Below are positions 1 to 53,737 of a DNA stretch of 53,737 nucleotides, piece by piece (position 1 is the first letter of the stretch; every line of letters starts with the position of its first letter). The position numbers were made by a program, and so were the translations under genes. The notes under the pieces are model-generated. The model searched no databases. It worked only from the letters and a program-made list of their open reading frames with translations, and was not told the origin of the DNA. Source of the DNA: Candidatus Undivivens industriae (GTDB lineage Bacteria; Omnitrophota; Gorgyraeia; Gygaellales; Profunditerraquicolaceae); the NCBI GenBank assembly GCA_012514745.1, contig JAAYZR010000007.1:1-53737 (forward strand). The letters run 5' to 3'.

Positions 1-10
1 CTTCTATTTT

Positions 11-34
11 CCGGCGAAGCCAATGCTTCGCCGG
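11..34. other. Perfect 10-bp stem / 4-nt loop hairpin (CCGGCGAAGC-CAAT-GCTTCGCCGG) at the distal end of the repeat block
   Basis: Read directly from the sequence. There is no U-tract on the minus strand, so it is not a canonical intrinsic terminator. Confidence 0.6.
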
Positions 35-95
35 TACACAGCGCTTATTCGGCTGGCTGCTTATTCCGGCAACCTCCCCGGAGCTTCACACGAGT

Positions 96-354
96 GAACA
101 CCTGCCTCTCCAATAAGGCAGGGTGTTCCCCGCAAGGGAACACTTGCCCAATTCCTCACAAGGGCAGGGTGTTATCCCAAGGTGAACACTTGCCCAATTC
201 CCCACAAGGGCAGGGTGTTATCCACAGGGGAACACTTGCCCAATTCCCCACAAGGGCAAGGTGTTATCCCCATAGGCCAAGGTATAACACACAGGTGTAT
301 ACTTTCACACTGGTGAACACTTGCCCAATTCCGCACAAGGGCAAGGTGTTATCC
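96..354. repeat. Tandem array of ~46-nt hairpin repeats: intact copies at 96-129, 138-177, 184-223, 230-269 and 315-354, plus a decayed copy at ~276-309
   Basis: The plus-strand unit is GAACACTTGCCC-AATTCCCCACAA-GGGCAAGGTGTTATCC. The arms AACAC(-)TTGCCC and GGGCAAGGTGTT pair as 11 bp with one bulge. Copy starts at 138, 184 and 230 give an exact 46-nt period, which is not a multiple of 3. Confidence 0.9.
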
Positions 355-370
355 CCATTGGCTAAGGTAC

Positions 371-412
371 CCCCCCGGGTTAAAACCCGGGGATTTCTGG
401 GCGAGGGGATTT
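371..412 (-). repeat. Copy of the dispersed GC-rich hairpin element (minus strand CCTCGCCCAGAAATCCCCGGGTTTTAACCCGGGG)
   Basis: Near-identical to 40565-40603. It shares the core CAGAAATC-CCGG-loop-CCGG with copies at 3359-3400, 11685-11724 and 29151-29191. Confidence 0.8.
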
Positions 413-431
413 AAAAGTAAGATACCGGATT

Positions 432-460
432 ATTTTATACCTGGAGGCGGGATTTGTCTA
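432..460 (-). promoter_or_regulatory. Candidate sigma70-type promoter TAGACA-N17-TAAAAT pointing into the hairpin array
   Basis: On the minus strand, the -35 TAGACA is the reverse complement of 455-460 and the -10 TAAAAT is the reverse complement of 432-437, with a 17-nt spacer. The region is AT-rich, so a chance match is possible. Confidence 0.3.
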
Positions 461-556
461 TTTATATAAGAAGGTTTTCCGGATACGCGCGAGAGAAAAT
501 CGTTACTTGTTCTATATTTGTGCCTCGGGCTTTATCCTCCGCCCTGCGGCCCGCGG

Positions 557-1591
557 CTATCCCGTAAATACCCGCCGCAGGCAGGAAGATTCCCGCCTGG
601 CGTGGCAGTCTTGCAGGCAGAAATCACGGCAGCTCTTTATCATGGACCGCTTCCTGCGGGCGGCGCTCGAATGCCATATCCTTCTTATGTCCGGGCACCG
701 CCTGAAATTGCCGATGATCTCGCCGCACATCTGAATGTTCCCGTCCGGACAGACCACGAACCGCCTGAACCCGGCGAAACACGTCCAGTCGTTCTTGGCG
801 AGAGTCCCGCTGAAATATTTTTTTATAAGGGAGAAACTCGGGTAGTCGAACCTGTAGTATTCATCCTGCATTTTCTCCAGCTCCGCCATAACTTCGTCAA
901 GCCGCCGGAGGCGGTCTCCGGTTATCCAGAGAGGATGGTTCTCCCTGCGGGAATAAAGACGTATATTGTCCGCCACCAGCGAAGTCAGATAGACCGCGTC
1001 CACTCCCAGCTTTTTCGCCATACGCACGTACTCAACGGCTTCGTCAAGGTTCTCGTTATGCAGTGTCAAGATGAGGACTGTTACCGGCCGCCCGGCTTTT
1101 TTCGCGGCGTGGAGCGATTTAATCCCTTCAATGATCTTGCCGTACGCGCCCGGGACTCCGCGGATAGAGTCATGCATCGCAGCCGTAGCCCCGTCAAGCG
1201 ATATACAAACTATGTGCACGCCCGAACCAACCAGTTCCGCGGCGGAATCGGCATTTATAAGCGTGCCGTTGGTTGTCAGGATAACTTTTAGCCCCTTTTT
1301 TACGGCGTGCCTTATGACATCGAAACATTTATCGCTTAAAAGCGGCTCGCCTCCGCAAAGGTTCATCTCAGGGATGCCCCATTCAACCGCCTGGTCAGTG
1401 ATATTCAACACCTCGGCGGCCGTCATCTCGTTCTCCCGGCCGGGATTGGACCAGACACTGCACATTTTACATTTAAGATTGCAGGCGTTTGTAAGAGAGA
1501 CCTGAATGGTATCCGGTACAACAAGCGGAATACCGGCTTTACGGGAGAGCCAGAACCTGAAATCACGAAACAGTACGCGGAAATCCTTCAT
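557..1591 (-). CDS. Radical SAM protein with a Cys-rich SPASM/twitch-like C-terminal domain
   Basis: 344 aa. It has the CxxxCxxC cluster motif (TNACNLKCKMCSVW), GGEPLL, and C-terminal cysteines (CFAG..VVCPDGNIQMCG..CPD..CRDFCLQDC). Confidence 0.85.
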   Translation of the reverse strand: MKDFRVLFRDFRFWLSRKAGIPLVVPDTIQVSLTNACNLKCKMCSVWSNPGRENEMTAAEVLNITDQAVEWGIPEMNLCGGEPLLSDKCFDVIRHAVKKGLKVILTTNGTLINADSAAELVGSGVHIVCISLDGATAAMHDSIRGVPGAYGKIIEGIKSLHAAKKAGRPVTVLILTLHNENLDEAVEYVRMAKKLGVDAVYLTSLVADNIRLYSRRENHPLWITGDRLRRLDEVMAELEKMQDEYYRFDYPSFSLIKKYFSGTLAKNDWTCFAGFRRFVVCPDGNIQMCGEIIGNFRRCPDIRRIWHSSAARRKRSMIKSCRDFCLQDCHARRESSCLRRVFTG

Positions 1592-1730
1592 TTTAGGACG
1601 TGAGCATAAAGGCTATGCTGAGTTAATATACCGTAAGGGCCGGAGAATAATCCGCTCCGGCCCTGGTGAACGTCGTCTTAAGTTTTTTTTCCGCGCGGAC
1701 ATCTTCCGCGTTCGCGCGAAAATAAAAGCA

Positions 1731-3263
1731 TCAATATTCCCTTTCCTGGGCAATGGTCATATCGAGGAAAGAACGCAGTCTTCTGGCCCGCGTGGGATGC
1801 CGGAGTTTCTTCAAGGCCTTGGCCTCTATCTGCCGTACGCGCTCTCTGGTAACCTTGAATATGTTACCAACCTCCTCCAGGGTACGAGGACATCCATCCG
1901 TCACGCCGAAACGCAAAACCAGTATTTTACGCTCCCTATCGGTAAGGGTATTAAGAGCAGATCCCATCTCTTCTTTAAGCATGGAATGAACTGTGGCGTT
2001 CGCGGGAGAAACAGCCCTCTTATCCTGTATAAAATCCCCGAAATGCGTGTCCCCTTCATCGCCTATAGGCATCTGTAAAGATATCGGTTCCTGCGCGATC
2101 TTCAATATAGACTTTATCTTATCCTGGGGCAGGCGCATCTTGCAGGCGATCTCCTCAGGGGTAGGTTCGCGGCCGTTCTCCTGGACGAATATTCTCGAAA
2201 AACGCATTATCTTGTTGATGGTCTCCGTCATATGTACCGGAATGCGTATGGTGCGCGCCTGATCGGCGATGGAACGCGTTATGGCCTGCCGGATCCACCA
2301 GGTGGCGTAAGTGGAGAATTTATATCCTCTTTTGTACTCGAACTTCTCTACCGCGCGCATAAGTCCGATGTTGCCTTCCTGTATGAGATCGAGGAAAGAG
2401 AGCCCCCGGTTTGTGTATTTCTTGGCTATACTGACCACAAGGCGCAGATTGGCTTCCACCAGCCGCTTTTTTGTCCGGTTGAATTTCAGCTGGCAGGACC
2501 TGATAAGCCTAAGCTGCTCCTTGATCAAAGGAAGCGGCTCGCTGAGATGTTTCAGGATCTCGCGTTTCCTGGAGGGATTACCGTGTTTTCTGTGGCGGAG
2601 ATTCTCATATTCACGCACCAACCCATGCATCTTTACCACCACGCCCTCGATCACGGATATGGTGAAATTGAACTGCATCAATAATCCCAGTGACGTCTGG
2701 CTGCTGCGCGTGGCTTTGATCTTTTTGCTTATATTCCTGATCTTCCTGACCACCGCGTCCTTGTTCGTCTTGATATCCTCTTTCAATATCTCTTCCAGAT
2801 TCGCCCTGTCTTCCAGTATATCCCGGGCCACGCCCAGCAGCTCATTGCGGGCGAAGCGAGTCACCAGAACCGCTCTTTTCAGATTAAGCTCGGCCTCTTC
2901 TATCTTTTTGGCCAGATCAAGCTCTTCTTCCCGGGACAACAGGGAGATCGAGCCCATCTGCTTCAAATACATCTTCACGGGATCATCCAGGGGCATAAAG
3001 CGCTCTTCCGCCTTTGCCTTGTCCGCCCCCTGGTCATCCTGCCCGCCCAGTTCCGCCTGCTTGGGGGCGCTGACTTCTCTGCTGCTCTCCACGATCTGTA
3101 TATCTTCGTTGCCGAGCATCTGGAATATCTGGTCTATATCCTCCGACGATTCGATATCCTCGGGAAGCATATCGTTAACCTCGTCGTAAGTAAGGAACCC
3201 TTTCTGCCTGCCGAGAGCGATTATCTTTTTTATGTCTCTCTTGACCGTTTCTTTTCTTTTCAT
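1731..3263 (-). CDS. rpoD: RNA polymerase primary sigma factor (sigma-70 family)
   Basis: 510 aa. It contains [12 protein letters not shown] (region 2) and [24 protein letters not shown] (region 4.2), and lies directly downstream of dnaG as in the conserved dnaG-rpoD arrangement. Confidence 0.97.
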
Positions 3264-3358
3264 CTTCTCATCCTTTACATGACTGTAATAATAAAGCCCG
3301 GGGGTTCTTTCTCAAGTAACCCCTTGTCGTAAGATACCGGGAAAATCCCTTCGGTTAA

Positions 3359-3400
3359 GGTAAATCCGGCTTTCAAGCCGGGGATTTCTGTGGTTTGATT
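3359..3400 (-). repeat. Copy of the dispersed hairpin element overlapping the 3' end of dnaG (minus strand ATCAAACCACAGAAATCCCCGGCTTGAAAGCCGGATTTACC)
   Basis: 35 of 41 positions match the copy at 29151-29191. The dnaG stop codon TGA lies in the hairpin loop. Confidence 0.85.
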
Positions 3401-5160
3401 AAAGTATTGAATTCCTTAAGTAATACGTCCAGTTTCACCCGGTCGCCGGAAACCTGGGCGTCCTTTATCTGCTGATGCAGGCACCTTCTCCGGTTGTTCA
3501 TATTGTGCATTTTTATGCGTTTAACGCAGTCGCTGGCCATCTTTTCTTTTTCCTCGGCCGAGACGTCTTCCGAGGATAAAACCGGATCGCACACTATCCC
3601 GGAGATACCGCTGCCTTCCAGATGGTTCATAATCATACCCGCCCCCACACACACGCCCTGGGCGGATAATTCAAACATCGTCCTCACTATCTGCCCGGCG
3701 GTCCTGCTCTGGAAATCAGAGGGGTCGAGCGAATCGCGTATCCTGGATATAAGCTCGTTCTCCTGAAGCATAAGCTGTATCAGAAGTTTCTCCGCCGGCA
3801 GCACCGCTTCCGTCTCCCGGGAAGGGACTTGTTTGTCCTGTTCCGTACGCCGGACTTCTTTTCTCCCGGATTTAATCTTGTTAAGTTCCTCCAACAAAGC
3901 TTCCTCGGGGACGTTTAACTCTCCCGCAAGCACGCGCAGATATTCCGATCGGACCACCGCGCTATGGAACTTGCTTATAATGGAAAGCATCTCCTCTGCC
4001 ACGGCGTCCTTACCGGCGGCTCCGGATACATTGTGCCTGGATTTCAATATGCCCAGTTTATAATCGAATATTTCCTTCGCTCCGTCTATTAAGCCGCGGA
4101 AGGCCTCAGGCCCTTCTCTACGCACGAAGGTATCCGGGTCGTCCCCCTGGGGCAAAACGGCTACGCGCACGTTCATCCCCTCTTCGATGAACAGCTCAAG
4201 CGCCCTCAAGGCCGCGCTTTCTCCGGCCTTATCTCCGTCGTATATTATCACGACTCCGGAGGCGTACCTCTTCAAGAGCCTGATCTGCTCTTCGGTAAGC
4301 GCCGTGCCCTGCGAAGCGACCAGATTGTCCACCCCCTCCTGGTACGGGATCAAGAAATCCAGGTATCCTTCCACGACCACGGCGCAGTCCTTTTTTCTTA
4401 CGGCGTCCTTGGAAAGGTTGAGCCCGTAGAGATTGCGTCCTTTCGTGTATACCGCGGTCTCCGGGGAATTGATATATTTGACCCCTTTGTCGGCTGCCGA
4501 ATAAACCCTGCCCCCGAACCCTATTATCCTGGAACGAGCATCGCTGATGGGAAACATAATTCTGTTCCGGAAACGGTCGTAATAACCTCCGCCCTGGCGC
4601 GGAGTTATCAGCCCGGCCTTATCGAGCAGGGAAAGCGGAATACCTTTACCGCGCATAAAAGATATCAAGCCGTCCCAGCTGTCCGGCGCGAGGCCGACCC
4701 CGACTGACTCCAGGATTTCCCTGCGCAAGCCTCTCTCCTTCAGGTAGGTCAAAGCGGCGTTGCCGGCCGTAGAAAACAGCCGCGCGCTGAAGAAACCGGC
4801 GGCGAGCTCATTCGCCTTGAATATCTGAGCGTTCACTCCTTCGGCGTTGCGGTCCGCGCTCAATTGCGGGATGACCACGCCGCAGCGCCGGGCCAGCAAC
4901 TCGACCGCCTCCATGAATTCCATACGTTCATGCTGCATAAGAAATTTGAACGCGTTACCGGACTCCCCGCAGCCGAAACAATGATATATTTGTTTATCTG
5001 GAGAAACCATAAAAGAAGGGGTCTTCTCGTTATGAAAAGGGCAGCAGGCCCGGAAATTCCTCCCGGCCTTCTTCAACGGGATATACGCGGAAATCAGTTC
5101 CACGATATCCACCCTGGAGAGTATATCATCCAGTACGTTCTCGGGTATTCTTCCCTTCAT
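3373..5160 (-). CDS. dnaG: DNA primase
   Basis: It has the CHC2 zinc finger CPFHNEKTPSFMVSPDKQIYHCFGCGESG and TOPRIM motifs (VVVEGYLD, IYDGDKAG). I took the start at MKGRIPENV (ATG 5158-5160), which forms an ATGA overlap with the upstream stop. The longer GTG start at 5190 remains possible. Confidence 0.95.
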   Translation of the reverse strand: MKGRIPENVLDDILSRVDIVELISAYIPLKKAGRNFRACCPFHNEKTPSFMVSPDKQIYHCFGCGESGNAFKFLMQHERMEFMEAVELLARRCGVVIPQLSADRNAEGVNAQIFKANELAAGFFSARLFSTAGNAALTYLKERGLRREILESVGVGLAPDSWDGLISFMRGKGIPLSLLDKAGLITPRQGGGYYDRFRNRIMFPISDARSRIIGFGGRVYSAADKGVKYINSPETAVYTKGRNLYGLNLSKDAVRKKDCAVVVEGYLDFLIPYQEGVDNLVASQGTALTEEQIRLLKRYASGVVIIYDGDKAGESAALRALELFIEEGMNVRVAVLPQGDDPDTFVRREGPEAFRGLIDGAKEIFDYKLGILKSRHNVSGAAGKDAVAEEMLSIISKFHSAVVRSEYLRVLAGELNVPEEALLEELNKIKSGRKEVRRTEQDKQVPSRETEAVLPAEKLLIQLMLQENELISRIRDSLDPSDFQSRTAGQIVRTMFELSAQGVCVGAGMIMNHLEGSGISGIVCDPVLSSEDVSAEEKEKMASDCVKRIKMHNMNNRRRCLHQQIKDAQVSGDRVKLDVLLKEFNTLIKPQKSPA

Positions 5161-6032
5161 ATCCTTCTTATCCTCCGAAAACCTGAACACTCCATAAAAC
5201 TGAACCTCTCGTCTGAAAGCGATTCTATTCCGTCTAAAAGCAGATTCATCCCCAGGGTATCCGAAGATATGTGCCCGGCTACTACGACGTTTACGTTCCC
5301 GGCCCTAAGCCTGGAAAAATGCTCTTCGCTCATATGCATGGAGACTACCGTCCCCACTCCTCCGGAAGCCAATTTCTCGAACAACTGTTTGGGCCCTTCC
5401 GTCCCGCCGGTCATATCCACAAACACCTTGCCGCAGGGGCGGCCCGGACCGCCTATAATCACACGCGGCCCGGCGGAATTACCGGCAGCCTCGGCGTATT
5501 CCGGAAGCGACGACAGCATATTAAGAAGTTTTTCTACCGTGGCCGGGGCCTCTCTGTCAAATTTCTCCTGCAGGAACGCGTGCACATGGTTGTCGGCGGG
5601 CGTATGCGCGCACATCAAAGGGATATCAAGCAGACGCGCGGCATCCACCGTGCGCATATGATTCTGCGCCAGCAGTTTCCTGGAAACTTCCAGCATGCGT
5701 TCTTCCAGGAACCCGTCTACGGCAGCCGGCTCTACTCCAAGCCCCCGCCAAATCACGGATTGAAGAGGAATGACCTTGTAAAAAGACGCCCAGGCCTGTC
5801 CTGCGGGATGATGAGACAACACAAGGTCAACTTTACGCGCGTCCGCGAGCCTGTCGGCGAGAAGCAATTCTTGAGTATCAATATCTATCCCGGCAAGGAT
5901 ATTCCTGACTTCCTTTTCCGGACTGCCGTAAAGCACGGCTGTATCCGGATATGCTTTGACGCCTTTAACGCCGCGCGGATCGCGTTCCCTGCCGAGCCGG
6001 ATAACGTATTCGTAGAAAACCGATAATTTCAT
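5157..6032 (-). CDS. NIF3/YbgI-like metal-binding protein
   Basis: 291 aa. It shows an N-terminal DLVLSHHP motif and a C-terminal VVAGHISSD motif, as in the NIF3 family. This family call is by eye only. Confidence 0.7.
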   Translation of the reverse strand: MKLSVFYEYVIRLGRERDPRGVKGVKAYPDTAVLYGSPEKEVRNILAGIDIDTQELLLADRLADARKVDLVLSHHPAGQAWASFYKVIPLQSVIWRGLGVEPAAVDGFLEERMLEVSRKLLAQNHMRTVDAARLLDIPLMCAHTPADNHVHAFLQEKFDREAPATVEKLLNMLSSLPEYAEAAGNSAGPRVIIGGPGRPCGKVFVDMTGGTEGPKQLFEKLASGGVGTVVSMHMSEEHFSRLRAGNVNVVVAGHISSDTLGMNLLLDGIESLSDERFSFMECSGFRRIRRI

Positions 6033-6607
6033 TTGTTCAGGCTGTCGCGGATAATATCCAGGGAGGCGTTATATTGTTCCCCGTGCATGAATTTCGACAT
6101 AACGGTATTCCAGATCCAACCGTAAGTACCGGCGACGTTATCGACAAGTCCGCGCCCGGATAAGGATTGCGCTACGCTGGAATGCAGATAATCACGCGCA
6201 GATATGGAAAACGCCAGAAAAAGCAGCCCGCTGAACAACACCCCCCGGCAGAGACCCAGGAGAAATCCCCCCCAGGAATTCAATATTTGCGCCGCTTCGA
6301 TCTTGAGGAAACGCATGAGCAGACGTCTCGGCAGGATGAAAATACCGTAGCCCAAAGAACATAATGCTATAAATAATAATGTTTCAGGAAAAGCCGCCGA
6401 ACTGCCTTCCGCGCCCAGACGGCTGTGAAAAAAACCCGCCAGGGAAGCGTAATAATGACACCCGAGATAAACGGCAAGTATGCTCCCGGAAATTTTAAAG
6501 ATCTCGACAAGAAAACCGTTTCTAATAGCGACGTAACAGGTTCTTATTAAAAGAATTACAAAAACAAGGTCTATCCAGTTCAAACGGTTGACGATCTCTG
6601 CGAGCAT
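6029..6607 (-). CDS. cvpA: CvpA-family integral membrane protein
   Basis: 192 aa with about 4 hydrophobic helices. The N-terminus LNWIDLVFVILLIRTCYVAIRNGF is typical of CvpA-like proteins. Confidence 0.72.
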   Translation of the reverse strand: MLAEIVNRLNWIDLVFVILLIRTCYVAIRNGFLVEIFKISGSILAVYLGCHYYASLAGFFHSRLGAEGSSAAFPETLLFIALCSLGYGIFILPRRLLMRFLKIEAAQILNSWGGFLLGLCRGVLFSGLLFLAFSISARDYLHSSVAQSLSGRGLVDNVAGTYGWIWNTVMSKFMHGEQYNASLDIIRDSLNK

Positions 6608-6634
6608 ATGTGATTTCCCCCTTTAAGTTGATAA

Positions 6635-6664
6635 AGTATAACATATTTTTTTCTCTATTGTCAA
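6635..6664 (-). promoter_or_regulatory. Candidate sigma70 promoter TTGACA-N18-(TGt)TATACT upstream of cvpA
   Basis: The -35 is the reverse complement of 6659-6664 and the -10 is the reverse complement of 6635-6640, with a TG extended -10. It lies about 28 nt upstream of the cvpA ATG. Confidence 0.5.
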
Positions 6665-6777
6665 GAAAGCGCTTTCTTTAGGCCGGTTTTATTTCAAGGA
6701 CTGACCTTCAGACGGAATAATGGGAGTATCTTCGAGGTTTTTACGGTTTAGCCCGGCCGGCGTTATGGGAAAAGCCG

Positions 6778-8049
6778 TTATAGCGGTTCAGCGCGCATAC
6801 CGCCGCTGATTATTTCTTCCAACCGCACCCGCAGAGCGGTCTTATAATCGGGAAGAATTCCACGGGAAGGGATCAACACCCTGATGTAATTCGCGCTGTA
6901 TCCTTCAAGAAAGACGCTTTTATTGTCGCGAGCCGGCAATATCTCCTCCGGCATCACTTCGCTTTCCTTGCCGATGAAATCTTGCATATACTCGCGCGAG
7001 CATTCCTGCGCCAACCGCGACAAAATAATTCTTCTTCCTTTTATAGCCTCCCGGTCAAGATGACCGGACATTTGAGCAGCCGCCGTTCCCTTGCGCGGAG
7101 AAAAAGGAAAAACATGCGTACGTAAAGGCTGTATCTCCTTTAACGTGCGCAAGGTATTCGAAAATGCCTCTTCATCTTCTCCGGGGAAACCTACTATGAC
7201 GTCTGTGGTAATCGAGACGCCGGGAACGTTTTTCTTGATGTCTTTCACCCGGGACAGGAATACGCTTCTATTGTACCGCCTGCGCATGACGGCCAGTATG
7301 CGGTCATCTCCGCTCTGCAGCGGCACGTGAAAATGCGGGCAAAGCTTCCCGTTCCCGGAAAACAATTCAAGCAGTTCCGGGGAGATATCAGCCATCTCTA
7401 TAGAACTCAACCTTATCCTGCTGATCCCCTCTATCCGCGTCAGTCCTTTCAGCAATCCCGCCAGCGATCCCGGGCTGTCTTTATCCTTACCGTAAGAGCC
7501 GAGGCAGATGCCGGTCAGCACTATCTCCCGGTAACCGTTGGCGGAGAGCCGGGACGCCTCATCCACTATCTCTTTCTCATCCCGGCTTATGGACTTGCCG
7601 CGCACCAGTGCTACTTTACAGTAAGAGCAACGGTTGTCGCAACCGTCCTGAACTTTGATAAAGGCCCGGCTGCGGCCCTGGAAAAACGAAATGCCTCCGC
7701 GCTTCCCTCCCGCGGAGGATGCCGGGAGGAACTCGAGGATGCGTTTCTTGCAGTCGTTGCGCAATACCGCTGAAACACCTTTGACCTTCTTTATGCGTTC
7801 CTCATCCATCTCAGCCAGACAGCCGGTAACCAGAATAAGAGCCCCCGGGTTTTCCACGACGGCCTTGCGTATTATGCGCAACGACTCGCTGTCCGCTTTA
7901 GCGGTAACAGTGCAGGTATTGATAACGCATACACCGGCAGGCTCCCCGGGTCCGGCCTCTTCGAGCCCGGCGCAAAGCAAATCCTCCCGCATGCACTGCG
8001 TTTCATACTGGTTAACCTTACAGCCAAGAGTAAAGAATCTCGCCTTCAT
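6778..8049 (-). CDS. mtaB: tRNA methylthiotransferase, MtaB-like (MiaB/RimO superfamily)
   Basis: It has the N-terminal FFTLGCKVNQYE (UPF0004) motif, a radical SAM GCDNRCSYC motif and a TRAM-like C-terminus. I chose the start at MKARFF because GGAGGG sits 7 nt upstream. Adjacency to rsmE matches the B. subtilis yqeU-yqeV arrangement. Confidence 0.9.
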   Translation of the reverse strand: MKARFFTLGCKVNQYETQCMREDLLCAGLEEAGPGEPAGVCVINTCTVTAKADSESLRIIRKAVVENPGALILVTGCLAEMDEERIKKVKGVSAVLRNDCKKRILEFLPASSAGGKRGGISFFQGRSRAFIKVQDGCDNRCSYCKVALVRGKSISRDEKEIVDEASRLSANGYREIVLTGICLGSYGKDKDSPGSLAGLLKGLTRIEGISRIRLSSIEMADISPELLELFSGNGKLCPHFHVPLQSGDDRILAVMRRRYNRSVFLSRVKDIKKNVPGVSITTDVIVGFPGEDEEAFSNTLRTLKEIQPLRTHVFPFSPRKGTAAAQMSGHLDREAIKGRRIILSRLAQECSREYMQDFIGKESEVMPEEILPARDNKSVFLEGYSANYIRVLIPSRGILPDYKTALRVRLEEIISGGMRAEPL

Positions 8050-8081
8050 GATGGGGCCCTCCGGACTAAAGGCCGGGGAAT

Positions 8082-8831
8082 TTATGAACGATAATCTGCG
8101 CAAAAATGGAAGAAAGAAGCGACGGCGACGGCTGCGGTATCCACCCTCAACACCAGATCCCCCAGGGATACCGGTATAAAACCGCGGGTTTTCGCATCCT
8201 TTACCTCGGCAGGAGAGAAATCACCTTCAGGGCCGATAAGAAAAGCCAATTCCCCCGTTTCAGGACCAAGACGAGCGAAATCGGTTATATGCCGTCTATC
8301 ACCCTCAAGAGTGGGAATAAGCTTCATCCCGCAATCCGAGGTGATTTCAAGGGCCTCGGAGAAAGTGCATACCGCTTCCAGCAGAGGCGGATGCGGCCTG
8401 CCGCATTGCTGAGTGGAGTTCAAGGCTATTTTCTGCCAGCGCTGCGTTTTGCGCGTAAGGACGGTTTTATTGGGACGGACTACCGTCCGCTCCGTTATCA
8501 TAGGTATTATACGGACTGCCCCCAGTTGAGTCAGGCTGTCTACTATATCGTCCATGGCGCTTTTCTTCGGTAAGGCGCAGGCCACGGTTAGAGAAAAAAG
8601 GCCGGCCCGCCGGACGCTGCGCCCTTGAACGGACAGGACAATCGAATTCTTTCCGCAGCTGTCTATTATGCACGCGTATTCCGCTCCGGAATCGTCGAAT
8701 ACGGAAAGCGCGTCTTTGGGGCCCAGGCGAAGGACATCTCTGATATGATGCACCCTCTCAGGGATATCTATCACGATCCTGTTACCGGCGACGCTGCGGG
8801 AGGGACAATACGTCCTGTAAACATGCGGCAT
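8082..8831 (-). CDS. rsmE: 16S rRNA (uracil1498-N3)-methyltransferase
   Basis: It has the C-terminal LIGPEGDFSPAE motif and a PUA-like N-terminus. The start is taken at MPHVYRTY; the tracked ORF extends to 8912. Confidence 0.87.
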   Translation of the reverse strand: MPHVYRTYCPSRSVAGNRIVIDIPERVHHIRDVLRLGPKDALSVFDDSGAEYACIIDSCGKNSIVLSVQGRSVRRAGLFSLTVACALPKKSAMDDIVDSLTQLGAVRIIPMITERTVVRPNKTVLTRKTQRWQKIALNSTQQCGRPHPPLLEAVCTFSEALEITSDCGMKLIPTLEGDRRHITDFARLGPETGELAFLIGPEGDFSPAEVKDAKTRGFIPVSLGDLVLRVDTAAVAVASFFHFCADYRS

Positions 8832-9218
8832 TGTTATCTTTCCAGTCCGGGAGGATATATAGAATACCCGGTTGCGAACGTGAAAAAGGAGCGGCTCTCT
8901 GCGCGGTCTCACCCGGTACTCAAAAAAAACATAAGGTATGATTCTTACGACTGCACTATTAACAAAAGTTCTGCCGGTATCCGCGATCCGAATGCCGAGT
9001 TGACCCCGGGCTTCAATCCCGGTCTTCGATTAACTCCATGCGCCGTCAGGATAAAAAGGCTAATGTAACGGCAGTCTGCGGGCTAAAGGGGAGTGGCTCT
9101 GCAATAAATACTCATTATATCCGGCAGCTCACAAACCGCGCCGGCGGATGCGCGGAGCACAAGATCAGGGGCATAGACTTCAAGCGGCATCAAGACGCCG
9201 GGATCGAGAATGGAAATA

Positions 9219-9291
9219 TGGACCCGAGCGGAGTCGAACCGCTGATCTCCGCAATGCGAATGCGGCGTTCTCCCAACTGAACTACGGGCCC
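9219..9291 (-). tRNA. tRNA-Ala (anticodon CGC), CCA not encoded
   Basis: Minus strand: GGGCCCGTAGTTCAGTTGGGAGAACGCCGCATTCGCATTGCGGAGATCAGCGGTTCGACTCCGCTCGGGTCCA. It folds as a cloverleaf with a 7-bp acceptor stem containing the G3:U70 Ala identity pair, anticodon loop TTCGCAT, and T-loop GGTTCGACTCC. Confidence 0.93.
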
Positions 9292-9372
9292 GAAACTACG
9301 GCTCTATGTATTCTGGGATATATACTCAACAGTGAGTATATAGTGTAACACAGACGGCTGAAAGGTCAAATG

Positions 9373-9918
9373 TTAATTCAGCGAAACGGAAGGCATATTG
9401 CCGGAGGAAAACAGGGAAACTTCCGGATTGTTGGTCGAAACGCCTGAAACCGGGTCATAACGCGCTACAATGGAAAAATTCATGTAATTGACCGAGGCGG
9501 GCACCGTGCAGACAAAAGATACGACTTTACGGCTCAAGATCGTATAAGTCCCCGGGCTGCCGCTGTAATTGTCGTATTTGCGCAGTTGGTGAGTCGTGGA
9601 GTCATAGCCGTAGGCCACCTGGCGGTCAGACCCGTCCCTGACGCCGTTCTTGTTGTAATCCACCCAGATGGTGACAAGCGAAGTATTACCTCCGGAGGTG
9701 CTTATAGCCAGCGGCCATTCGCCGCTGGATCCCAGCGCGCTGTTCAAATCCTTGCACAAGGAGGCGGCTATGAGATACGCATCGTTCTGCAGTCTCGATG
9801 CCCGGTCTATATCATTTACTTCAAAACGGCCGAAAAGCTCGAAATTGGCCGCGGTCAGCGCCACTACCCCCAAGATCATGACGACGAGGACCAATTCTAT
9901 CAATGTGAAGGCTTTCAT
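9373..9918 (-). CDS. Prepilin-type minor pilin / pseudopilin (FimT/GspH-like size)
   Basis: It has the class III signal MKA|FTLIELVLVVMILGVVAL with Glu at +5. The tracked ORF extends upstream to 10005. Confidence 0.75.
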   Translation of the reverse strand: MKAFTLIELVLVVMILGVVALTAANFELFGRFEVNDIDRASRLQNDAYLIAASLCKDLNSALGSSGEWPLAISTSGGNTSLVTIWVDYNKNGVRDGSDRQVAYGYDSTTHQLRKYDNYSGSPGTYTILSRKVVSFVCTVPASVNYMNFSIVARYDPVSGVSTNNPEVSLFSSGNMPSVSLN

Positions 9919-10128
9919 AGTAAGGCCGGCGGTCCCTTCCTTTTTCCGGAGAAGCTTCGGCTTAACCGGCGCAATGCGTATACCGGGCAGTAAACCTGTT
10001 ATCACTCCGTCATATAGCTTTCTGATAATCGAAAACAGAAGTCAAACCGCTTCACTGCTCAAGGCGCTCAAGACAGAGCAGGCGCTCATCCCCGCGGGTA
10101 CAATCCGGGAATCCCTGCGTTAAGGAAA

Positions 10129-10569
10129 CTAAGGAATATACTCCGTCCAGTTAACGGTCAGTTTAACCCTCCGCAGATTGTGGAAATCCTGGACCTCATA
10201 CTTGGCGCTGTAAACCAGGCGGTTGAGCGTCCTCTCGGATAGCGGAAGACAATTCGGCGACTGCGGAGTAAAGCCGCCTCCGCAGTAATAAGTGGAGGCG
10301 GTCAATGCATTGCCGGAAGCGTCCCAGGTATCCGCCCTGACATACATCGGCAGAAAAGAAAAGAACTTGTAAGCCAACTGCCCGGCGACGGTCTTGGAAG
10401 TACTTAATACGGAATGCCTCTTTCCGGCGGTAAAAACCGCCATCATCCCGAACATTACCAGCGCCAACAGTATGCTGGAGACTACCGCTTCCATCAGATT
10501 CATGCCCCTGAGCGAGCGTATATTCACGACGTCCCCGTAATAAACGGCGCCCTTGTCCGGGGCGCCCAA
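10129..10569 (-). CDS. Prepilin-type minor pilin (PilV-like)
   Basis: The leader ends ...LRG|MNLMEAVVSSILLALVMFGMMAVF (Gly at -1, Glu at +5). Confidence 0.7.
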   Translation of the reverse strand: MGAPDKGAVYYGDVVNIRSLRGMNLMEAVVSSILLALVMFGMMAVFTAGKRHSVLSTSKTVAGQLAYKFFSFLPMYVRADTWDASGNALTASTYYCGGGFTPQSPNCLPLSERTLNRLVYSAKYEVQDFHNLRRVKLTVNWTEYIP

Positions 10570-10594
10570 AGATCCTTTTCCCGAGAAAAGGCTT

Positions 10595-11014
10595 TTAAGG
10601 AATACAATTATCCCCTCCCAAGGAGGTACATGTTGGTTCTTCCGCTGTTATGGCTATAGACCAGCGTCTTCCGGATGGGGAGCGCGATGCGGTGGCCGCG
10701 CCGGTGCCGGTTGTGGTGGAGTAAGCCCAATGCGCGTTGCTTGAGGTGGGCAGGAACACTTTCAGATGGGTATTCAATAAACCATGGTTTACCGTACCGG
10801 AATACGGATAATAGAAGCCGTTCTGCATATAGTATATCTTTTCCGCGGCCTGGAGAAGTTTGAGGGTGGCTTTCGCCTCATTGTCATAACTCTTCTCCTT
10901 CATTTTCCGCAGATTCGGCAGGCTTAAAGTCGCCAGAATGCCTATAATGATAATTACGACCAGCAGCTCGAGAGCAGTGAACGCCGTCGTCATCTTCCGA
11001 CTCATCGAAAGCAT
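10595..11014 (-). CDS. Prepilin-type pilin (GspG/PilE-like)
   Basis: MLSMSRKMTTA|FTALELLVVIIIIGILATLSLPNL, followed by the amphipathic helix EAKATLKLLQAAEKIYY. Confidence 0.85.
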   Translation of the reverse strand: MLSMSRKMTTAFTALELLVVIIIIGILATLSLPNLRKMKEKSYDNEAKATLKLLQAAEKIYYMQNGFYYPYSGTVNHGLLNTHLKVFLPTSSNAHWAYSTTTGTGAATASRSPSGRRWSIAITAEEPTCTSLGGDNCIP

Positions 11015-11035
11015 ATAAGCCTCCCTGTAATATAA

Positions 11036-11064
11036 AGTATAGCCGTCCGCCGGGAGCTTGTCAA
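11036..11064 (-). promoter_or_regulatory. Candidate sigma70 promoter TTGACA-N17-TATACT upstream of the 139-aa pilin gene
   Basis: The -35 is the reverse complement of 11059-11064 and the -10 is the reverse complement of 11036-11041. The SD GGGAGG follows. Confidence 0.55.
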
Positions 11065-11594: not shown

Positions 11595-11684
11595 CGCCGT
11601 AAATCAAACAACTTTCGCATTAGGAGGTTAGGCTTCCCATTGAAGCTCCCTGAACTTGAAGCCCGGGGTAACCTTCACCGCATT

Positions 11685-11724
11685 CATTTCCGGCTCGAAA
11701 GCCGGGAATTTCTGCGCTTTGATT
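11685..11724 (-). repeat. Copy of the dispersed hairpin element abutting the pilin stop codon (minus strand ATCAAAGCGCAGAAATTCCCGGCTTTCGAGCCGGAAATG)
   Basis: Sequence similarity to 3359-3400 and 29151-29191. It overlaps the TAA stop at 11723-11725. Confidence 0.8.
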
Positions 11725-40513: not shown

Positions 40514-40603
40514 TTATTGAAACTCCCCGGGCTTGAAGCCCGTGGCAATCTACTCCGTATTTATCCCCGGGTTAAAACCCGAAGATTTCTGGGCGAGGGG
40601 ATT
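40514..40603 (-). repeat. Composite of three repeat modules between argD and argF
   Basis: The modules are a 17-mer TTATTGAAACTCCCCGG (40514-40530, identical to 33316-33332), a CCCGGG-type hairpin (40525-40545), and a hairpin element at 40565-40603 that is near-identical to 371-412 and overlaps the argD TAA stop. Confidence 0.8.
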
Positions 40604-41777
40604 AAACGCGGGCGAGGGCGCCGGACAAGATCCCCGCGGCCTTGTTTATCTGCCCTCTGGTAACGTTTAATGCCGGCATAACACGCAGCACCTTCTCATG
40701 CGTACAGTTTATCAAAAGCCCCTTCTCCCTGCAATATTCAACCACTCCGTCTCCGCTAACGGCAAGTTCGATGCCGAGCATCAGCCCCATGCCCCGCACA
40801 TCTTTAATGACCGGATACTTTCCCTTTAAAACGAGGAGTCGCTGTTTCAGGTATTCTCCCATTTCTACCGCGTTATCCAGCAATTTCTCTCTGCGTATCG
40901 CTCTCAACACGGCCAGCGCGGCCTTGCAGATCACCGGGCCGCCGCCGAAAGTGGAGGCGTGCATACCCGGCCCAAGCACGTCTGAAAATTCCTTCCTGAC
41001 CGCCATCAGCCCGATCGGCAGCCCGCCTCCCAATGCCTTGGCCGCGGTAAGCACATCGGGCATAACGCCGTAATTCTGGTAACAGAACATCTTCCCGGTC
41101 CGGCCTATCCCGGTCTGCACTTCGTCCACGATAAGCAGCAGCTTTTTACGGTCGCAAAGCTCCCTCAGGGAGGCGACAAACTCCTTTGTCGCCACATTAA
41201 TACCGCCTTCCCCTTGTATAAGCTCCAGCATCACCGCCGCCGTCTCCGGGCCGGCGGCTTTCTCCACCGCCGAGATGTCGTTGAAAGGCACGCTTTTAAA
41301 ACCTTCAAGCATCGGCCCAAAACCGCGCTGGTACTTTTCCTGGCCTGTAGCGGCAAGCGCCCCCATGGTCCTGCCGTGGAAAGCGTTCTCAAAAGTAATT
41401 ATCCCGTACCTGCCCTTGCCGAACTGCCTGGCCAGCTTTATCGCAGCCTCGTTCGCCTCCGCCCCGGAATTACAGAAAAAATAAGACGCCGGGAAGGTGT
41501 AAAAAGACAGCTCTCCGGCGAGTTGGGCCTGGCAAACGTTATAATATGAATTCGGCACGAATATCAGGCGCGAGATCTGGTCCCTGACGGCCGACATCAC
41601 CTTGGGATGGCAGTGTCCGACGTTGTTCACACCCCAGCCGGGAAAGAAATCCAGAAAAACCCTATTGTGAATATCCCAAAGCCTGCTCCCCTTGCCTTTG
41701 ACGAAAACCAGAGGTATCTTGCGGTAAGTGGAAAGTATGTGCTCTTCGTATTCCCCGAATATCTCTTCTTTTTTCAT
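40602..41777 (-). CDS. argD: Acetylornithine aminotransferase
   Basis: It is a class III aminotransferase with DEVQTGIGRTGK. Confidence 0.93.
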   Translation of the reverse strand: MKKEEIFGEYEEHILSTYRKIPLVFVKGKGSRLWDIHNRVFLDFFPGWGVNNVGHCHPKVMSAVRDQISRLIFVPNSYYNVCQAQLAGELSFYTFPASYFFCNSGAEANEAAIKLARQFGKGRYGIITFENAFHGRTMGALAATGQEKYQRGFGPMLEGFKSVPFNDISAVEKAAGPETAAVMLELIQGEGGINVATKEFVASLRELCDRKKLLLIVDEVQTGIGRTGKMFCYQNYGVMPDVLTAAKALGGGLPIGLMAVRKEFSDVLGPGMHASTFGGGPVICKAALAVLRAIRREKLLDNAVEMGEYLKQRLLVLKGKYPVIKDVRGMGLMLGIELAVSGDGVVEYCREKGLLINCTHEKVLRVMPALNVTRGQINKAAGILSGALARV

Positions 41778-53671: not shown

Positions 53672-53696
53672 ATCCATGCTCCTTTCATACGGATGA

Positions 53697-53730
53697 AACA
53701 CTTGCGTAATTCCTATTAACGCAAGGTGTT
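53697..53730 (-). repeat. Solitary variant of the array hairpin in the fabG leader (minus strand AACACCTTGCG-TTAATAGGAATTA-CGCAAGTGTT)
   Basis: It has the same AACACCTTGC/GCAAGTGTT stem core as the units at 96-354, with compensatory changes at the loop-proximal pairs. Confidence 0.8.
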
Positions 53731-53737
53731 AATACAA

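What the first reader, a model, noticed from the sequence alone, without database searches (positions are those of the whole stretch)
1..460. Tandem GGA-presenting hairpin array with its own candidate promoter: sponge-type sRNA, type III antitoxin-like repeat RNA, or REP/BIME cluster?
Between the radical SAM stop (557) and the window edge lies a non-coding block with five intact copies and one decayed copy of a 46-nt unit (96-354). The period is exactly 46 nt (copy starts 138, 184, 230), so this is not a protein repeat. Each unit folds into an 11-12 bp stem (minus strand AACACCTTGCCC / GGGCAAGTGTT, one bulged C) with a 10-12 nt loop. Read on the minus strand, which is the sense of every gene here, the loops are UUGUGCGGAAUU, UUGUGGGGAAUU (twice), UUGUGAGGAAUU and, in the diverged copy at 96-129, UUAUUGGAGA. 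GGA survives in all of them even where the rest of the loop differs. Every single-stranded linker also carries GGA (AUGGGGAUAAC twice, GUGGAUAAC, UUGGGAUAAC, GCGGGGAAC). Two more GGA follow at about 60-90 (CCGGGGAGG, CCGGAAUAA). That gives at least 12 GGA in about 300 nt, alternating loop and linker. This is the architecture of CsrB/RsmY/RsmZ-type RNAs that titrate CsrA/RsmA. A sigma70-like promoter TAGACA-N17-TAAAAT (460-432, minus strand) sits just upstream, and a perfect 10-bp hairpin (11-34) closes the block. Two alternatives also fit. First, promoter + short tandem repeats + hairpin + downstream gene is the layout of type III toxin-antitoxin loci (ToxI-like); here the downstream gene would lie off-window to the left. 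Second, it could be a BIME-like cluster of REP elements, because related solitary copies exist at 53697-53730 and 29106-29125. Caveats: the stems are longer than in known Csr sponges; copies at 138 and 184 pair better in plus sense (T-G wobble) than in minus sense (C-A mismatch); the GGA regularity is partly a trivial consequence of repetition; and no csrA is present in this window.
Basis: partly seen in the sequence, partly recalled or inferred. Interest (0 to 1): 0.8.

Follow-up and report, generated by a model that had tools for sequence, protein, structure and literature searches.

The report
Dispersed hairpin repeat, not an sRNA
The tandem hairpins at the window's left edge are one copy of a repeat element scattered through the gene spacers of a small group of uncultured Omnitrophota bacteria (comparable to REP or BOX repeats elsewhere), not a dedicated regulatory RNA gene; it is ordinary in kind but undescribed in this phylum.

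Summary
Window 94-352 carries five 30-34-nt hairpins (AACACYTGCC-loop-GGCARGGTGTT), three of them at an exact 46-nt period, plus a decayed junction. The sponge-sRNA and type III antitoxin readings fail.

- The block is the inner part of a 440-nt modular element cut by the contig end. It has a left module, hairpins, and a right module ending GGGGA next to TTAAA.
- The same hairpins and modules occur in dozens of gene spacers in about eight related Omnitrophota MAGs: 138 model hits in 57 loci, none in 8 control loci. Hairpin number per element is 0-5, and assemblies often break there.
- At the orthologous spacer of four sister species the flanks and the promoter-like motif are kept but the array is absent. 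That motif most likely serves the next gene, a 731-aa radical SAM/SPASM protein and not a ToxN-type nuclease.
- The 12 GGA are real but only about 1.5 times the window average.
- No Rfam family matches, and no csrA was found in about 350 kb.

Best reading: a REP/BOX-like selfish or semi-domesticated repeat that grows by slippage and recombination. It may be mobilised as single-stranded DNA. Still unexplained: stems covary around a conserved TTCC loop, and 80% of copies lie antisense to the flanking genes.

The parts
1..93 (+). Left module (LT) of the repeat element, cut by the window edge; 31 nt more (GTGGAGCCCCTCGGGCTAAAGCCCGCGGCTC) lie off-window. It contains the perfect 10-bp hairpin at 11-34.
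   Evidence: L067 extends the window with 100% identity. 26 LT copies were found in other loci with variable left flanks. No terminator was called.
94..129 (+). Hairpin unit, 30-nt class (stem GCCT/AGGC, loop CTCCAATA)
   Evidence: CM R1 50.9 bits, E = 6e-13; pattern match
136..267 (+). Three hairpin units of the 34-nt class at an exact 46-nt period (136-175, 182-221, 228-267)
   Evidence: TRF period 46; CM R1 42.8-48.6 bits
268..312 (+). Degenerate junction: the 3' half of a GGCC-type unit, a linker, and a 5' half-unit
   Evidence: Read from the sequence and compared with linkers in relatives
313..352 (+). Fifth hairpin unit (34-nt class)
   Evidence: CM R1 46.7 bits
353..409 (+). Right module (RT): GGCTAAGGTA, then hairpin 373-392 (CCCCGGG-TTAAAA-CCCGGGG), then ATTTCTGGGCGAGGGGA. 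The element ends here, followed by TTTAAAAG.
   Evidence: 53 RT copies in other loci. The end is followed by TTAAA in 41 of 64 copies.
418..460 (-). Unique flank outside the repeat, conserved in sister species. It holds the promoter-like TAGACA-N17-TAAAAT, probably the promoter of the downstream 731-aa radical SAM/SPASM gene.
   Evidence: motif found. (conserved in L073, L074 and L076, which lack the array).
3288..3398 (+). Related 111-nt two-hairpin element (left-end hairpin variant plus RT variant) in the dnaG-rpoD spacer. It is absent in three sister species and replaces the last codons of DnaG.
   Evidence: Empty sites TGTA|TTAAAG in L074, L075 and L076; synteny
11640..11722 (+). Related 83-nt two-hairpin element, absent in the sister MAG
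   Evidence: Empty site GGCTTTCTA|TTAATAGTATCC in L055
29076..29190 (+). Mosaic copy: module CCGGCACTCT..., a half hairpin (GGGCAAGGTGTT) and an RT variant
   Evidence: same modules in L006
40517..40601 (+). Related 85-nt two-hairpin element ending GGGGA|TTAAA. The TAA of that pentamer (minus strand) is the stop codon of ORF 40602..41777.
53694..53737 (+). First unit (stem variant GCG/CGC) of a 3.5-copy, 48-nt-period hairpin array in the fabD-fabG spacer. The rest lies off-window.
   Evidence: L175; CM R1 35.7 bits for each of three copies

Best explanation
Window 1-409 is most of one 440-nt copy of a modular interspersed repeat family. The family is confined to a narrow clade of uncultured Omnitrophota.

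**Anatomy**
- The repeated core is a REP-like imperfect palindrome of 30-34 nt. Its frame is G-N-G-AAYACYT...ARGGTRT, with one bulged purine, a variable covarying stem top, and a TTCC-containing loop.
- The hairpins occur singly, or in direct tandem arrays of 2-5 with a period of about 42-48 nt.
- Arrays are often framed by a left module of about 125 nt and a right module of about 55 nt. Each module carries its own hairpin. This layout resembles the pneumococcal BOX element (boxA-(boxB)n-boxC).

**What is shown here**
- The copies are dispersed.
- Their presence, module content and hairpin number differ between genomes that are 92-95% identical in the flanking DNA.
- This particular copy is a lineage-specific arrival in the spacer between two radical SAM genes. 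It lies downstream of a conserved promoter-like motif and 26 nt upstream of the next start codon.

**What is inferred**
- Arrays grow and shrink by slippage or unequal recombination between the shared AAGGT(R) junctions.
- Modules are exchanged between copies.
- New copies insert next to a pre-existing TTAAA without a target duplication. Together with the subterminal hairpins and the strand bias, this suggests single-strand (HUH/Y1-type) mobilisation like IS200/IS605 or REP. I give this sub-claim about 0.3.
- In situ the element is probably co-transcribed, in its GGA-bearing sense, as a long structured 5' leader of the downstream gene. It has at most a side effect on mRNA stability or translation and no dedicated regulatory function.
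For: **Dispersal**
- The exact 18-mer of the unit hits about 30 contigs of MAG SO_2017_LW3_111 and several contigs of WOFB22, UBA6233, STD1_64 and SO_2017_LW3_55. Many hits are within 200 nt of contig ends.
- The right-module 24-mer adds further contigs and MAGs.
- Model R1 finds 138 units at E <= 1e-3 in 57 such loci, and none in 8 control loci that had matched the 18-mer by chance.
- In about 69 kb of the window's own genome there are 15 units at 4 sites.

**Modular anatomy**
- About 19 complete LT...RT copies span 142-440 nt, hold 0-5 hairpins, and contain no ORF.

**Variation between genomes**
- L027 has a 428-nt element where the window has 13 nt.
- L006 and L073 have a hairpin array where the window has only the right module.
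- Three species have empty sites in the dnaG-rpoD spacer.
- One orthologous site carries three different module sets in L011, L152 and L153.

**Orthologous locus of the finding**
- The flanks and the promoter-like motif are conserved in four sister species, but the array is absent.
- Six independent assemblies of the same strain are identical here, and five of them break inside the array.

**Hairpin under constraint**
- 93% of cells are paired, 6 of 11 pairs show changes on both sides, and 0 of 500 shuffles reach the observed score.

**Insertion site**
- The right end is followed by TTAAA in 41 of 64 copies and by TTAAN in 50 of 64. Left flanks vary. Three copies have RT abutting LT, as expected if the same target is re-used.
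- TTAAAG and TTAAT are already present in the two clean empty sites.

**Orientation**
- 41 copies lie antisense to the flanking genes, 10 lie in the same sense, and 4 are mixed.
Against: - No transposase partner was found. There is no multi-copy ORF in about 400 kb.
- The only Y1/RAYT-like gene, in a sister MAG, is single-copy, syntenic, and not flanked by these hairpins within 3 kb in 23 loci.
- No TIR and no TSD were seen, so the element is not a classical MITE.
- Several occupied/empty comparisons are not clean and look like in-situ remodelling rather than insertion.
- The TTCC loop motif (GGA in the gene sense) is kept in 34 of 42 distinct units across stem subtypes. Together with the 80% orientation bias, this leaves room for an RNA-level role that I cannot test.
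- Copy number per genome is extrapolated from fragments, not counted on a closed genome.
Confidence: 0.85

Rival explanations
1. Csr/Rsm-type sponge sRNA. A transcript driven by the promoter at 460-432 presents about 12 GGA motifs in loops and linkers and titrates a CsrA-family protein.
For: - 12 GGA in 301 nt on the gene-sense strand, alternating between loop and linker.
- A promoter-like motif lies upstream.
- The GGA-containing loop motif is kept in 34 of 42 distinct units.
Against: - The array is absent at the orthologous locus in four sister species that keep the promoter-like motif.
- Units are dispersed in dozens of spacers, often inside operons.
- GGA density is only about 1.5 times the window average.
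- There is no terminator. The element runs to 26 nt before the next ATG.
- There is no CsrB/RsmY/RsmZ match in Rfam, even at E <= 10.
- No csrA was found by tblastn in about 350 kb (weak test, queries recalled from memory).
- The minus-sense RNA does not fold into the one-hairpin-per-unit array.
Confidence: 0.03
2. Type III toxin-antitoxin. The tandem repeats are a ToxI-like antitoxin RNA, and the toxin gene lies just off-window.
For: The layout is a promoter followed by short tandem repeats and then a downstream gene.
Against: - The downstream gene is a 731-aa radical SAM/SPASM protein in conserved synteny with two other radical SAM genes.
- The repeats are dispersed genome-wide.
- There is no ToxN-like hit in about 350 kb (weak test).
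- There is no ToxI family hit in Rfam.
Confidence: 0.01
3. Exapted cis-acting RNA module. The hairpins spread as selfish DNA but are kept in the gene sense because their GGAA loops dock a global RNA-binding protein or modulate mRNA decay or translation. REP, ERIC and BOX elements are reported to have such effects.
For: - 80% of copies lie so that mRNAs carry the GGA sense.
- The loop TTCC is conserved while stems covary.
- Single hairpins sit 10-15 nt upstream of the Shine-Dalgarno sequences of fabG and yebC.
- BOX, REP, ERIC and Correia elements are reported to affect expression (PMC3049150).
Against: - Orientation bias is equally expected from purging of polar insertions. In the + sense, the off-window start of the left module is a hairpin followed by TTCTATTTT, which reads as terminator-like (sequence reading).
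- Orientation bias is also expected from strand-specific ssDNA insertion.
- G-T versus A-C wobble counts give no strand signal: 16 against 14.
- The loops of the different subtypes are homologous, so TCC retention may simply reflect shared descent.
- Presence varies between near-identical genomes.
Confidence: 0.1
4. Dedicated structured leader (riboswitch or attenuator) of the downstream radical SAM/SPASM gene.
For: It lies between a conserved promoter-like motif and the start codon and is strongly structured.
Against: - It is absent from the same leader in four sister species.
- The same sequence occurs next to unrelated genes.
- No Rfam cis-regulatory family matches.
Confidence: 0.02

Closest known systems
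REP / BIME elements of Enterobacteria and Pseudomonas, with their RAYT (TnpA-REP) transposases
   Same: - The units are 30-40-nt imperfect palindromes with a conserved short motif 5' of the stem foot and a required stem irregularity. Here that irregularity is a conserved bulged purine.
- Subtypes differ at stem positions that stay complementary.
- Copy number is high, and copies lie in gene spacers.
- Cluster size varies between strains.
- A Y1/RAYT-like gene is present in a sister genome.

Reference: PMC3333891.
   Different: - Units are in direct tandem, not the REP/iREP inverted pairs of BIMEs.
- The 5' motif is G-N-G-AAYAC, not GTAG.
- The RAYT-like gene is not flanked by the hairpins and scores below the NCBIfam RAYT cut-off.
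Pneumococcal BOX elements (boxA-(boxB)n-boxC) and the Streptococcus suis variants
   Same: - A left module, a variable number of tandem internal modules of about 45 nt, and a right module.
- The internal module folds on its own, so it can be absent or repeated.
- Length varies between strains.
- Elements are intergenic, often within operons, and are nested or clustered with other small repeats.

Reference: PMC3049150.
   Different: - There is no sequence relationship.
- No terminal inverted repeats resembling an IS were found.
- The hairpin arrays also occur without the two frame modules, for example in the fabD-fabG spacer.
BrickBuilt MITE of Porphyromonas gingivalis (leader, 23-nt minisatellite, tail)
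   Same: Flanking leader and tail subunits around a tandem minisatellite of variable length; always intergenic (PMC4596501).
   Different: - BrickBuilt has small inverted-repeat ends, and its 23-nt unit is not a hairpin.
- It has about 19 copies per genome. Here the count is at least 55 right-module sites, drawn mostly from one fragmented MAG and several relatives.
IS200/IS605-family elements and their non-autonomous derivatives
   Same: - No TIR and no TSD.
- Hairpins near both ends.
- Insertion next to a fixed pentanucleotide that is not duplicated and can be re-used.
- 17-19 nt between that site and the hairpin foot. In IS608 the distance is 19 nt (PMC3201880).
- Strand-biased orientation.
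   Different: - No tnpA or tnpB partner with matching ends was found.
- The guide/cleavage-site pairing could not be established.
- Several polymorphisms are not the precise gain or loss expected of this mechanism.
CsrB/RsmY/RsmZ sponge RNAs
   Same: Multiple GGA motifs, some in hairpin loops.
   Different: - Stems are 11 bp and loops 8-12 nt.
- The element is dispersed, multicopy and not conserved by position.
- There is no terminator.
- No Rfam family matches.
- No csrA was seen.

Membership tests
CsrB/Rsm-type sponge sRNA | A discrete transcription unit with its own promoter and terminator | tested here: not met
   The promoter-like motif is conserved in relatives that lack the array. No terminator was called. 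The element ends 26 nt before the next ATG. Transcription itself is not testable here.
CsrB/Rsm-type sponge sRNA | Conserved as a gene at a syntenic locus in related genomes, with GGA kept in loops | tested here: not met
   The array is absent at the orthologous spacer in L073, L074, L075 and L076.
CsrB/Rsm-type sponge sRNA | Cognate CsrA/RsmA protein encoded in the genome | tested here: inconclusive
   No tblastn hit better than E = 1.9 in about 350 kb of window plus loci. The queries were recalled from memory and the whole genome is not available.
CsrB/Rsm-type sponge sRNA | Match to Rfam CsrB/CsrC/RsmX/Y/Z models | tested here: not met
   Nothing at gathering score or at E <= 10 on window 1-600.
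Type III toxin-antitoxin (ToxIN-like) | ToxN/AbiEii-type endoribonuclease gene immediately downstream of the repeats | tested here: not met
   The downstream gene is a 731-aa protein with Radical_SAM and SPASM domains (L067 11649-13844).
Type III toxin-antitoxin (ToxIN-like) | Repeat array unique to the TA locus | tested here: not met
   138 units in 57 loci.
REP/BIME | Short imperfect palindrome, high copy number, extragenic | tested here: met
   All clusters lie between called ORFs.
REP/BIME | Stem irregularity and subtype-specific compensatory stem changes | tested here: met
   A bulged purine is present in all 42 aligned units. 6 of 11 pairs show double changes.
REP/BIME | Clusters made of REP and inverted REP in alternating orientation | tested here: not met
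   All units within a cluster share one orientation.
REP/BIME | RAYT (TnpA-REP) gene in the genome, flanked by the REPs | tested here: not met
   A Y1_Tnp protein was found in the sister MAG: PF01797 at 42.6 bits, and NF047646 at 65.7 bits against a cut-off of 80. No hairpin lies within 3 kb of it or of 22 homologues. The window strain's own genome could not be searched.
BOX-like composite repeat | Two conserved end modules around a variable number of tandem internal modules | tested here: met
   About 19 LT...RT copies, 142-440 nt long, with 0-5 hairpins.
BOX-like composite repeat | Length polymorphism of the internal array between strains | tested here: met
   Window against L006/L073 at the dnaG-rpoD spacer.
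Classical MITE | Terminal inverted repeats | tested here: not met
   LT and the reverse complement of RT share only a short CCCCT core (inspection).
Classical MITE | Target-site duplication | tested here: not met
   Left flanks are variable, and the right flank TTAAA is not repeated on the left.
IS200/IS605-derived non-autonomous element | Insertion 3' of a fixed tetra- or pentanucleotide without duplication; hairpins near both ends | tested here: inconclusive
   TTAAA adjoins 41 of 64 right ends and pre-exists in 2 of 2 clean empty sites. Hairpins are present near both ends. Only two clean empty sites are available.
IS200/IS605-derived non-autonomous element | Cognate TnpA (Y1) acting on the ends | not testable with these tools
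   This needs the complete genome and biochemistry. Only an unlinked RAYT-like gene was seen.

The most novel reading that the evidence does not exclude
The hairpins are more than selfish DNA. They would be a dispersed set of strand-specific RNA (or ssDNA) modules whose conserved GGAA/TTCC loop, on a covarying bulged stem, is read by one host protein: a global RNA-binding regulator or the syntenic RAYT-like Y1 enzyme. The roughly 80% gene-sense orientation and the placement just upstream of ribosome-binding sites and after stop codons would then reflect function. That would give Omnitrophota a genome-wide post-transcriptional or genome-structuring system built from a mobile repeat.
Probability: 0.08. 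Interest if true: 0.65.

Novelty: new member of a known kind. Interest (0 to 1): 0.3.

Why it matters
**Practical points**
- The family explains why assemblies of this Omnitrophota clade break at particular spacers. Both window ends, and five of six assemblies of the same strain, stop inside arrays.
- It warns against annotating such arrays as sRNA genes, CRISPR-like arrays or antitoxins in MAGs.

**Biological points**
- It adds a REP/BOX-type repeat family to a phylum known only from metagenomes.
- It shows very fast turnover. In about 14 kb compared between genomes that are 92-95% identical there, five spacers differ by small-repeat insertions or losses. Two of these involve a different 120-nt repeat family.
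- It provides a clean set of occupied and empty sites next to TTAAA. These could be used to test whether a domesticated Y1 enzyme mobilises direct-tandem hairpins.

The element also alters gene ends and leaders. It replaces the DnaG C-terminus and adds about 440 nt to a radical SAM gene leader, so it is a source of regulatory variation between strains.

Tried and rejected
- **Rfam.** I searched at gathering score on the whole window and at E <= 10 on 1-600. Only a tRNA and noise came back.
- **tblastn for known partners.** Queries were CsrA (E. coli and B. subtilis), E. coli RAYT, IS608 TnpA and ToxN, all recalled from memory, against about 350 kb. Nothing scored below E = 1. This is a weak test.
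- **All-against-all blastp.** I compared 1230 ORFs from the loci to look for a multi-copy transposase. Only orthologues from overlapping loci appeared.
- **HUH...Y motif scan.** It found one RAYT-like ORF. I followed it into 23 metagenome loci, and no hairpins flank it. The classical RAYT-REP link is therefore not supported.
- **Wobble test for the functional strand.** G-T 16 against A-C 14, which is uninformative.
- **TIR and TSD.** I searched the ends and flanks and found none.
- **Guide/cleavage-site pairing as in IS608.** It fits only the window's 7-bp stem variant, not the family consensus, so I dropped it.
- **Other readings considered.** Integron attC sites (the core motifs do not fit), CRISPR (a 46-nt period with no spacers), and a protein repeat (the 94..414 + ORF is an artefact of the repeat).
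- **Literature.** Two full-text searches of the held library (open-access PubMed Central plus bioRxiv) for Omnitrophota repeats found nothing relevant: Omnitrophota with 'repetitive extragenic palindromic' returned 0 papers, and none of the 10 listed hits of a broader search named the phylum.
Full report
**1. The observation**

The pattern AACACYTGCC-N(8-20)-GGCARGGTGTT matches five times, at 97-127, 139-173, 185-219, 231-265 and 316-350, all on the + strand. None is expected in 100 shuffles.

- Tandem Repeats Finder reports a 46-nt period over 117-270, and the repeat finder gives spacings of 46, 46 and 85.
- The perfect 10-bp hairpin at 11-34 and the promoter-like TAGACA-N17-TAAAAT at 460-432 (-) are both present. 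One promoter-like site in 700 nt is what chance gives (0.6 expected), and no terminator-like site is found on either strand.
- There are 12 GGA in 301 nt of the minus sense. Dinucleotide shuffles give 6.4 +/- 1.75, and the minus strand of the whole window averages 8.0 per 301 nt. The enrichment is therefore modest and comes from non-independent copies.
- Both strands fold better than shuffles (+ RNA z = -6.05, - RNA z = -4.02). Only the + sense gives the tidy one-hairpin-per-unit fold.

**2. The block is part of a larger element and is cut by the contig end**

A look-up of the radical SAM protein (557..1591, -) found six assemblies that carry it. One is a 180-kb contig (L067) that is 100% identical to window 1-11591 and continues 9.4 kb beyond coordinate 1.

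- The repeat continues for 31 more nt (GTGGAGCCCCTCGGGCTAAAGCCCGCGGCTC).
- After 26 nt of unique sequence comes the ATG of a 731-aa Radical_SAM/SPASM protein. That excludes a ToxN-like toxin.
- Five of the six assemblies stop inside or next to the array.
- The window's other end is the same kind of break. The 'solitary' hairpin at 53697-53730 is the first of 3.5 tandem 48-nt units in the fabD-fabG spacer.

**3. The units are dispersed**

- The 18-mer GAACACTTGCCCAATTCC matches about 30 contigs of one Omnitrophota MAG (SO_2017_LW3_111). It also matches several contigs of WOFB22, UBA6233, STD1_64 and SO_2017_LW3_55, often within 200 nt of a contig end.
- A handful of single hits in unrelated phyla are the number expected by chance for an 18-mer in 596 Gb (my estimate).
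- A 24-mer from the right module adds more contigs and MAGs. Some are labelled Planctomycetales, but they are syntenic with the window.
- A covariance model built from 42 distinct units (A1, R1) finds 138 units at E <= 1e-3 in 57 of these loci. It finds none in the 8 chance-hit control loci.
- In about 69 kb of the window strain's own genome it finds 15 units at four sites. Extrapolated to a genome of a few Mb, that is several hundred units. This is an extrapolation, not a count.

**4. Anatomy of the family**

Comparing copies shows three parts:
- a left module (LT, about 125 nt): GTGGAGCCCCTCGGGCTAAAGCCCGCGGCTCC-TTCTATTTT-CCGGCGAAGCCAATGCTTCGCCGG...;
- 0-5 hairpin units;
- a right module (RT): GGCTAAGGTAC-AACCGGGTTAAAACCCGG-GGATTTCTGGGCTAGGGGA.

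About 19 complete LT...RT copies span 142-440 nt, and none holds an ORF. The window copy is the longest seen.

The hairpins fall into five stem subtypes: GCCC/GGGC, GCCT/AGGC, GGCT/AGCC, GGCC/GGCC and AGC/GCT. All sit inside a conserved frame with one bulged purine.
- On the alignment, 93% of cells pair, 6 of 11 pairs show changes on both sides, and no shuffle out of 500 reaches the observed covariation.
- G-T against A-C counts (16 against 14) do not say which strand matters.
- The loop keeps TTCC (GGAA in the gene sense) in 34 of 42 distinct units.

Hairpin arrays also occur without LT and RT (fabD-fabG; upstream of tRNA genes and of yebC).

Shorter two-hairpin elements of 83-111 nt combine a variant of the LT hairpin with RT. 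They sit at window 3288-3398, 11640-11722 and 40517-40601.

**5. Turnover between close relatives**

Sister MAGs are 92-95% identical to the window in flanking DNA.
- L027 has a 428-nt element where the window has 13 nt.
- L006 and L073 have a hairpin array, plus a second insert inside the RT hairpin, where the window has only RT.
- Three more distant species have an empty dnaG-rpoD spacer (TGTA|TTAAAG). The window has 111 nt there and SO_2017 has about 400 nt.
- One site downstream of a conserved gene carries three different module sets in three genomes.

At the locus of the finding itself, four sister species keep the two radical SAM genes, the left flank TTATAAAGGT and the right flank TAAGATACCGGATTATTYTATACCTGGAGGCGGGATTTGTCTA, which includes the promoter-like motif. 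Between the flanks they have 40, 125, about 30 or about 150 nt of other sequence. In two of them this is a variant of the LT hairpin. None has a hairpin array.

The array is therefore a lineage-specific arrival or expansion. The promoter-like motif is better read as the promoter of the downstream gene. In the window strain the leader would then be about 480 nt instead of about 75-160 nt (inference).

**6. How it spreads (inferred)**

- Array length changes at junctions that share AAGGT(R)/GGTAA motifs. This fits slippage or unequal recombination, as proposed for boxB arrays (PMC3049150).
- For new sites: RT ends are followed by TTAAA in 41 of 64 copies and by TTAAN in 50 of 64. LT left flanks vary. 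In three copies RT abuts LT directly, as if a second element had used the same target.
- The two clean empty sites already contain TTAAAG or TTAAT at the junction.
- There is no TIR and no TSD. Hairpins sit near both ends, and the distance from the junction to the RT hairpin foot is 17-19 nt.
- These are the hallmarks of IS200/IS605-type single-strand transposition. In IS608 the target TTAC lies 19 nt from the left hairpin, insertion is 3' of it, and there is no gain or loss of target DNA (PMC3201880). REPs are thought to be processed by related Y1 enzymes (PMC3333891).
- A Y1_Tnp protein whose best NCBIfam match is the RAYT model (65.7 bits, below the cut-off of 80) is encoded in the sister MAG. 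It is single-copy and syntenic in relatives. It is not flanked by these hairpins, and no other transposase was seen.

I therefore give the ssDNA mechanism about 0.3.

**7. Orientation**

- RT modules lie antisense to both or the only flanking gene in 41 cases, in the same sense in 10, and mixed in 4. Hairpin clusters give the same picture.
- Most mRNAs that read through would therefore carry the GGA sense.
- Three explanations remain open.
  - Polar orientations may have been purged. In the + sense, the off-window start of LT is a hairpin followed by TTCTATTTT, which reads as terminator-like (sequence reading).
  - Insertion may be strand-specific with respect to the replication fork.
  - There may be an RNA-level role.
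- I cannot separate these without a closed genome or expression data.

**8. Comparison with known systems**

- As a hairpin, the unit is REP-like. It has a size of 30-34 nt, a stem irregularity, compensatory subtypes, high copy number and strain-variable clusters. It differs in that arrays are direct rather than REP/iREP pairs, the 5' motif is not GTAG, and no flanked RAYT exists.
- As a composite, the element works like BOX (A-(B)n-C) and BrickBuilt (leader-minisatellite-tail) (PMC3049150, PMC4596501).
- It is not a member of the Csr/Rsm sponge families or of type III TA systems. The defining features I could test were not met (see the membership table).

**9. Verdict**

The favoured interpretation is wrong.

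This is a new family of a known kind of element, in a phylum where no such repeat turned up in two full-text searches of the held open-access library. Interest is modest.

Two features remain unexplained and are worth a note: the conserved loop on covarying stems, and the strong strand bias.

Noticed in passing
window 1 and window 53694-53737: Both ends of the window fall inside hairpin arrays. The window is evidently a contig that the assembler broke at these repeats. Five of six assemblies of the same strain also stop at the left array.
   Followed up: yes
window 3288-3398: A 111-nt two-hairpin element sits in the dnaG-rpoD spacer and is absent in three sister species. The DnaG reading frame runs into it, so the last residues of DnaG differ: ...YFNTIM* in the empty-site species against ...YFNQTTEIPGL* here.
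   Followed up: partly
window 40602-40606: The TTAAA next to the right end of the element at 40517-40601 supplies, on the minus strand, the TAA stop codon of ORF 40602..41777. Insertion sites may often coincide with stop codons.
   Followed up: no
window 418-441, 3333-3345, 11533-11548: A short motif, TAAGATACCGG (or its reverse complement CCGGxATATCTT), recurs next to several repeat insertions and next to the promoter-like -10 box. Its meaning is unknown.
   Followed up: no
L067 15440-16060 (off-window, about 4 kb left of window coordinate 1): Upstream of the first tRNA gene detected by Rfam (L067 16285-16357) there is a 211-nt segment duplicated in tandem. Each copy carries a hairpin unit followed by a conserved stretch of about 70 nt (GGCTAAGGTATAGAGCGGAGCGAAAGGTCGCAAGGGATTCTCGAAAGAGAATACC...). 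Three more hairpins follow. Here the units lie in the same sense as the genes.
   Followed up: partly
L067 18302-18340 and window 53694-53732: Hairpins with different but compensating stems sit 10-15 nt upstream of the Shine-Dalgarno sequences of yebC and fabG, in the gene-sense (GGA) orientation.
   Followed up: partly
L011 621-1607 (-), sister MAG SO_2017_LW3_111: A 328-aa protein with an N-terminal Y1_Tnp/RAYT-like domain (HVHLL...YIHKNP) and a C-terminal extension that looks like a transmembrane segment followed by a charged coiled coil. It is single-copy and syntenic in at least three relatives.
   Followed up: partly
L006 1218-1439 and 2804-2926; L011 1985-2089; L152 2487-2636: A different repeat of about 120 nt (ATTGTTACATAAGTTTCTGATAATCGAGAATCG...CTTATTTAACAGCGC) is inserted in either orientation in sister MAGs. 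It is absent at the matching window sites (near 6702-6713 and 8077-8084).
   Followed up: no
L062 3229-3279; L074 downstream of its radical SAM gene; L062 6485-6577: A third small repeat (TCCTTCGACAA...TGAGCCTGTCGAACTGCTCAGGACA) is found nested inside the loop of the left-module hairpin, that is, a repeat within a repeat.
   Followed up: no
window 557-1591 and L067 11649-15362: Three radical SAM genes lie in a row (344 aa, 731 aa with a SPASM domain, 344 aa) downstream of the dnaG-rpoD genes. This may be a peptide-maturation or cofactor cluster. No precursor peptide was looked for.
   Followed up: no
window 28705-28763: A 12-nt-period tandem repeat (CCGCCTTCTTTG, 4.8 copies, 72% matches) was reported by TRF. 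It was not examined.
   Followed up: no
window 9219-9291 (-); L067 17840-18203: A tRNA-Ala(CGC) gene lies in the window. A class A RNase P RNA (169.5 bits) lies off-window to the left.
   Followed up: yes
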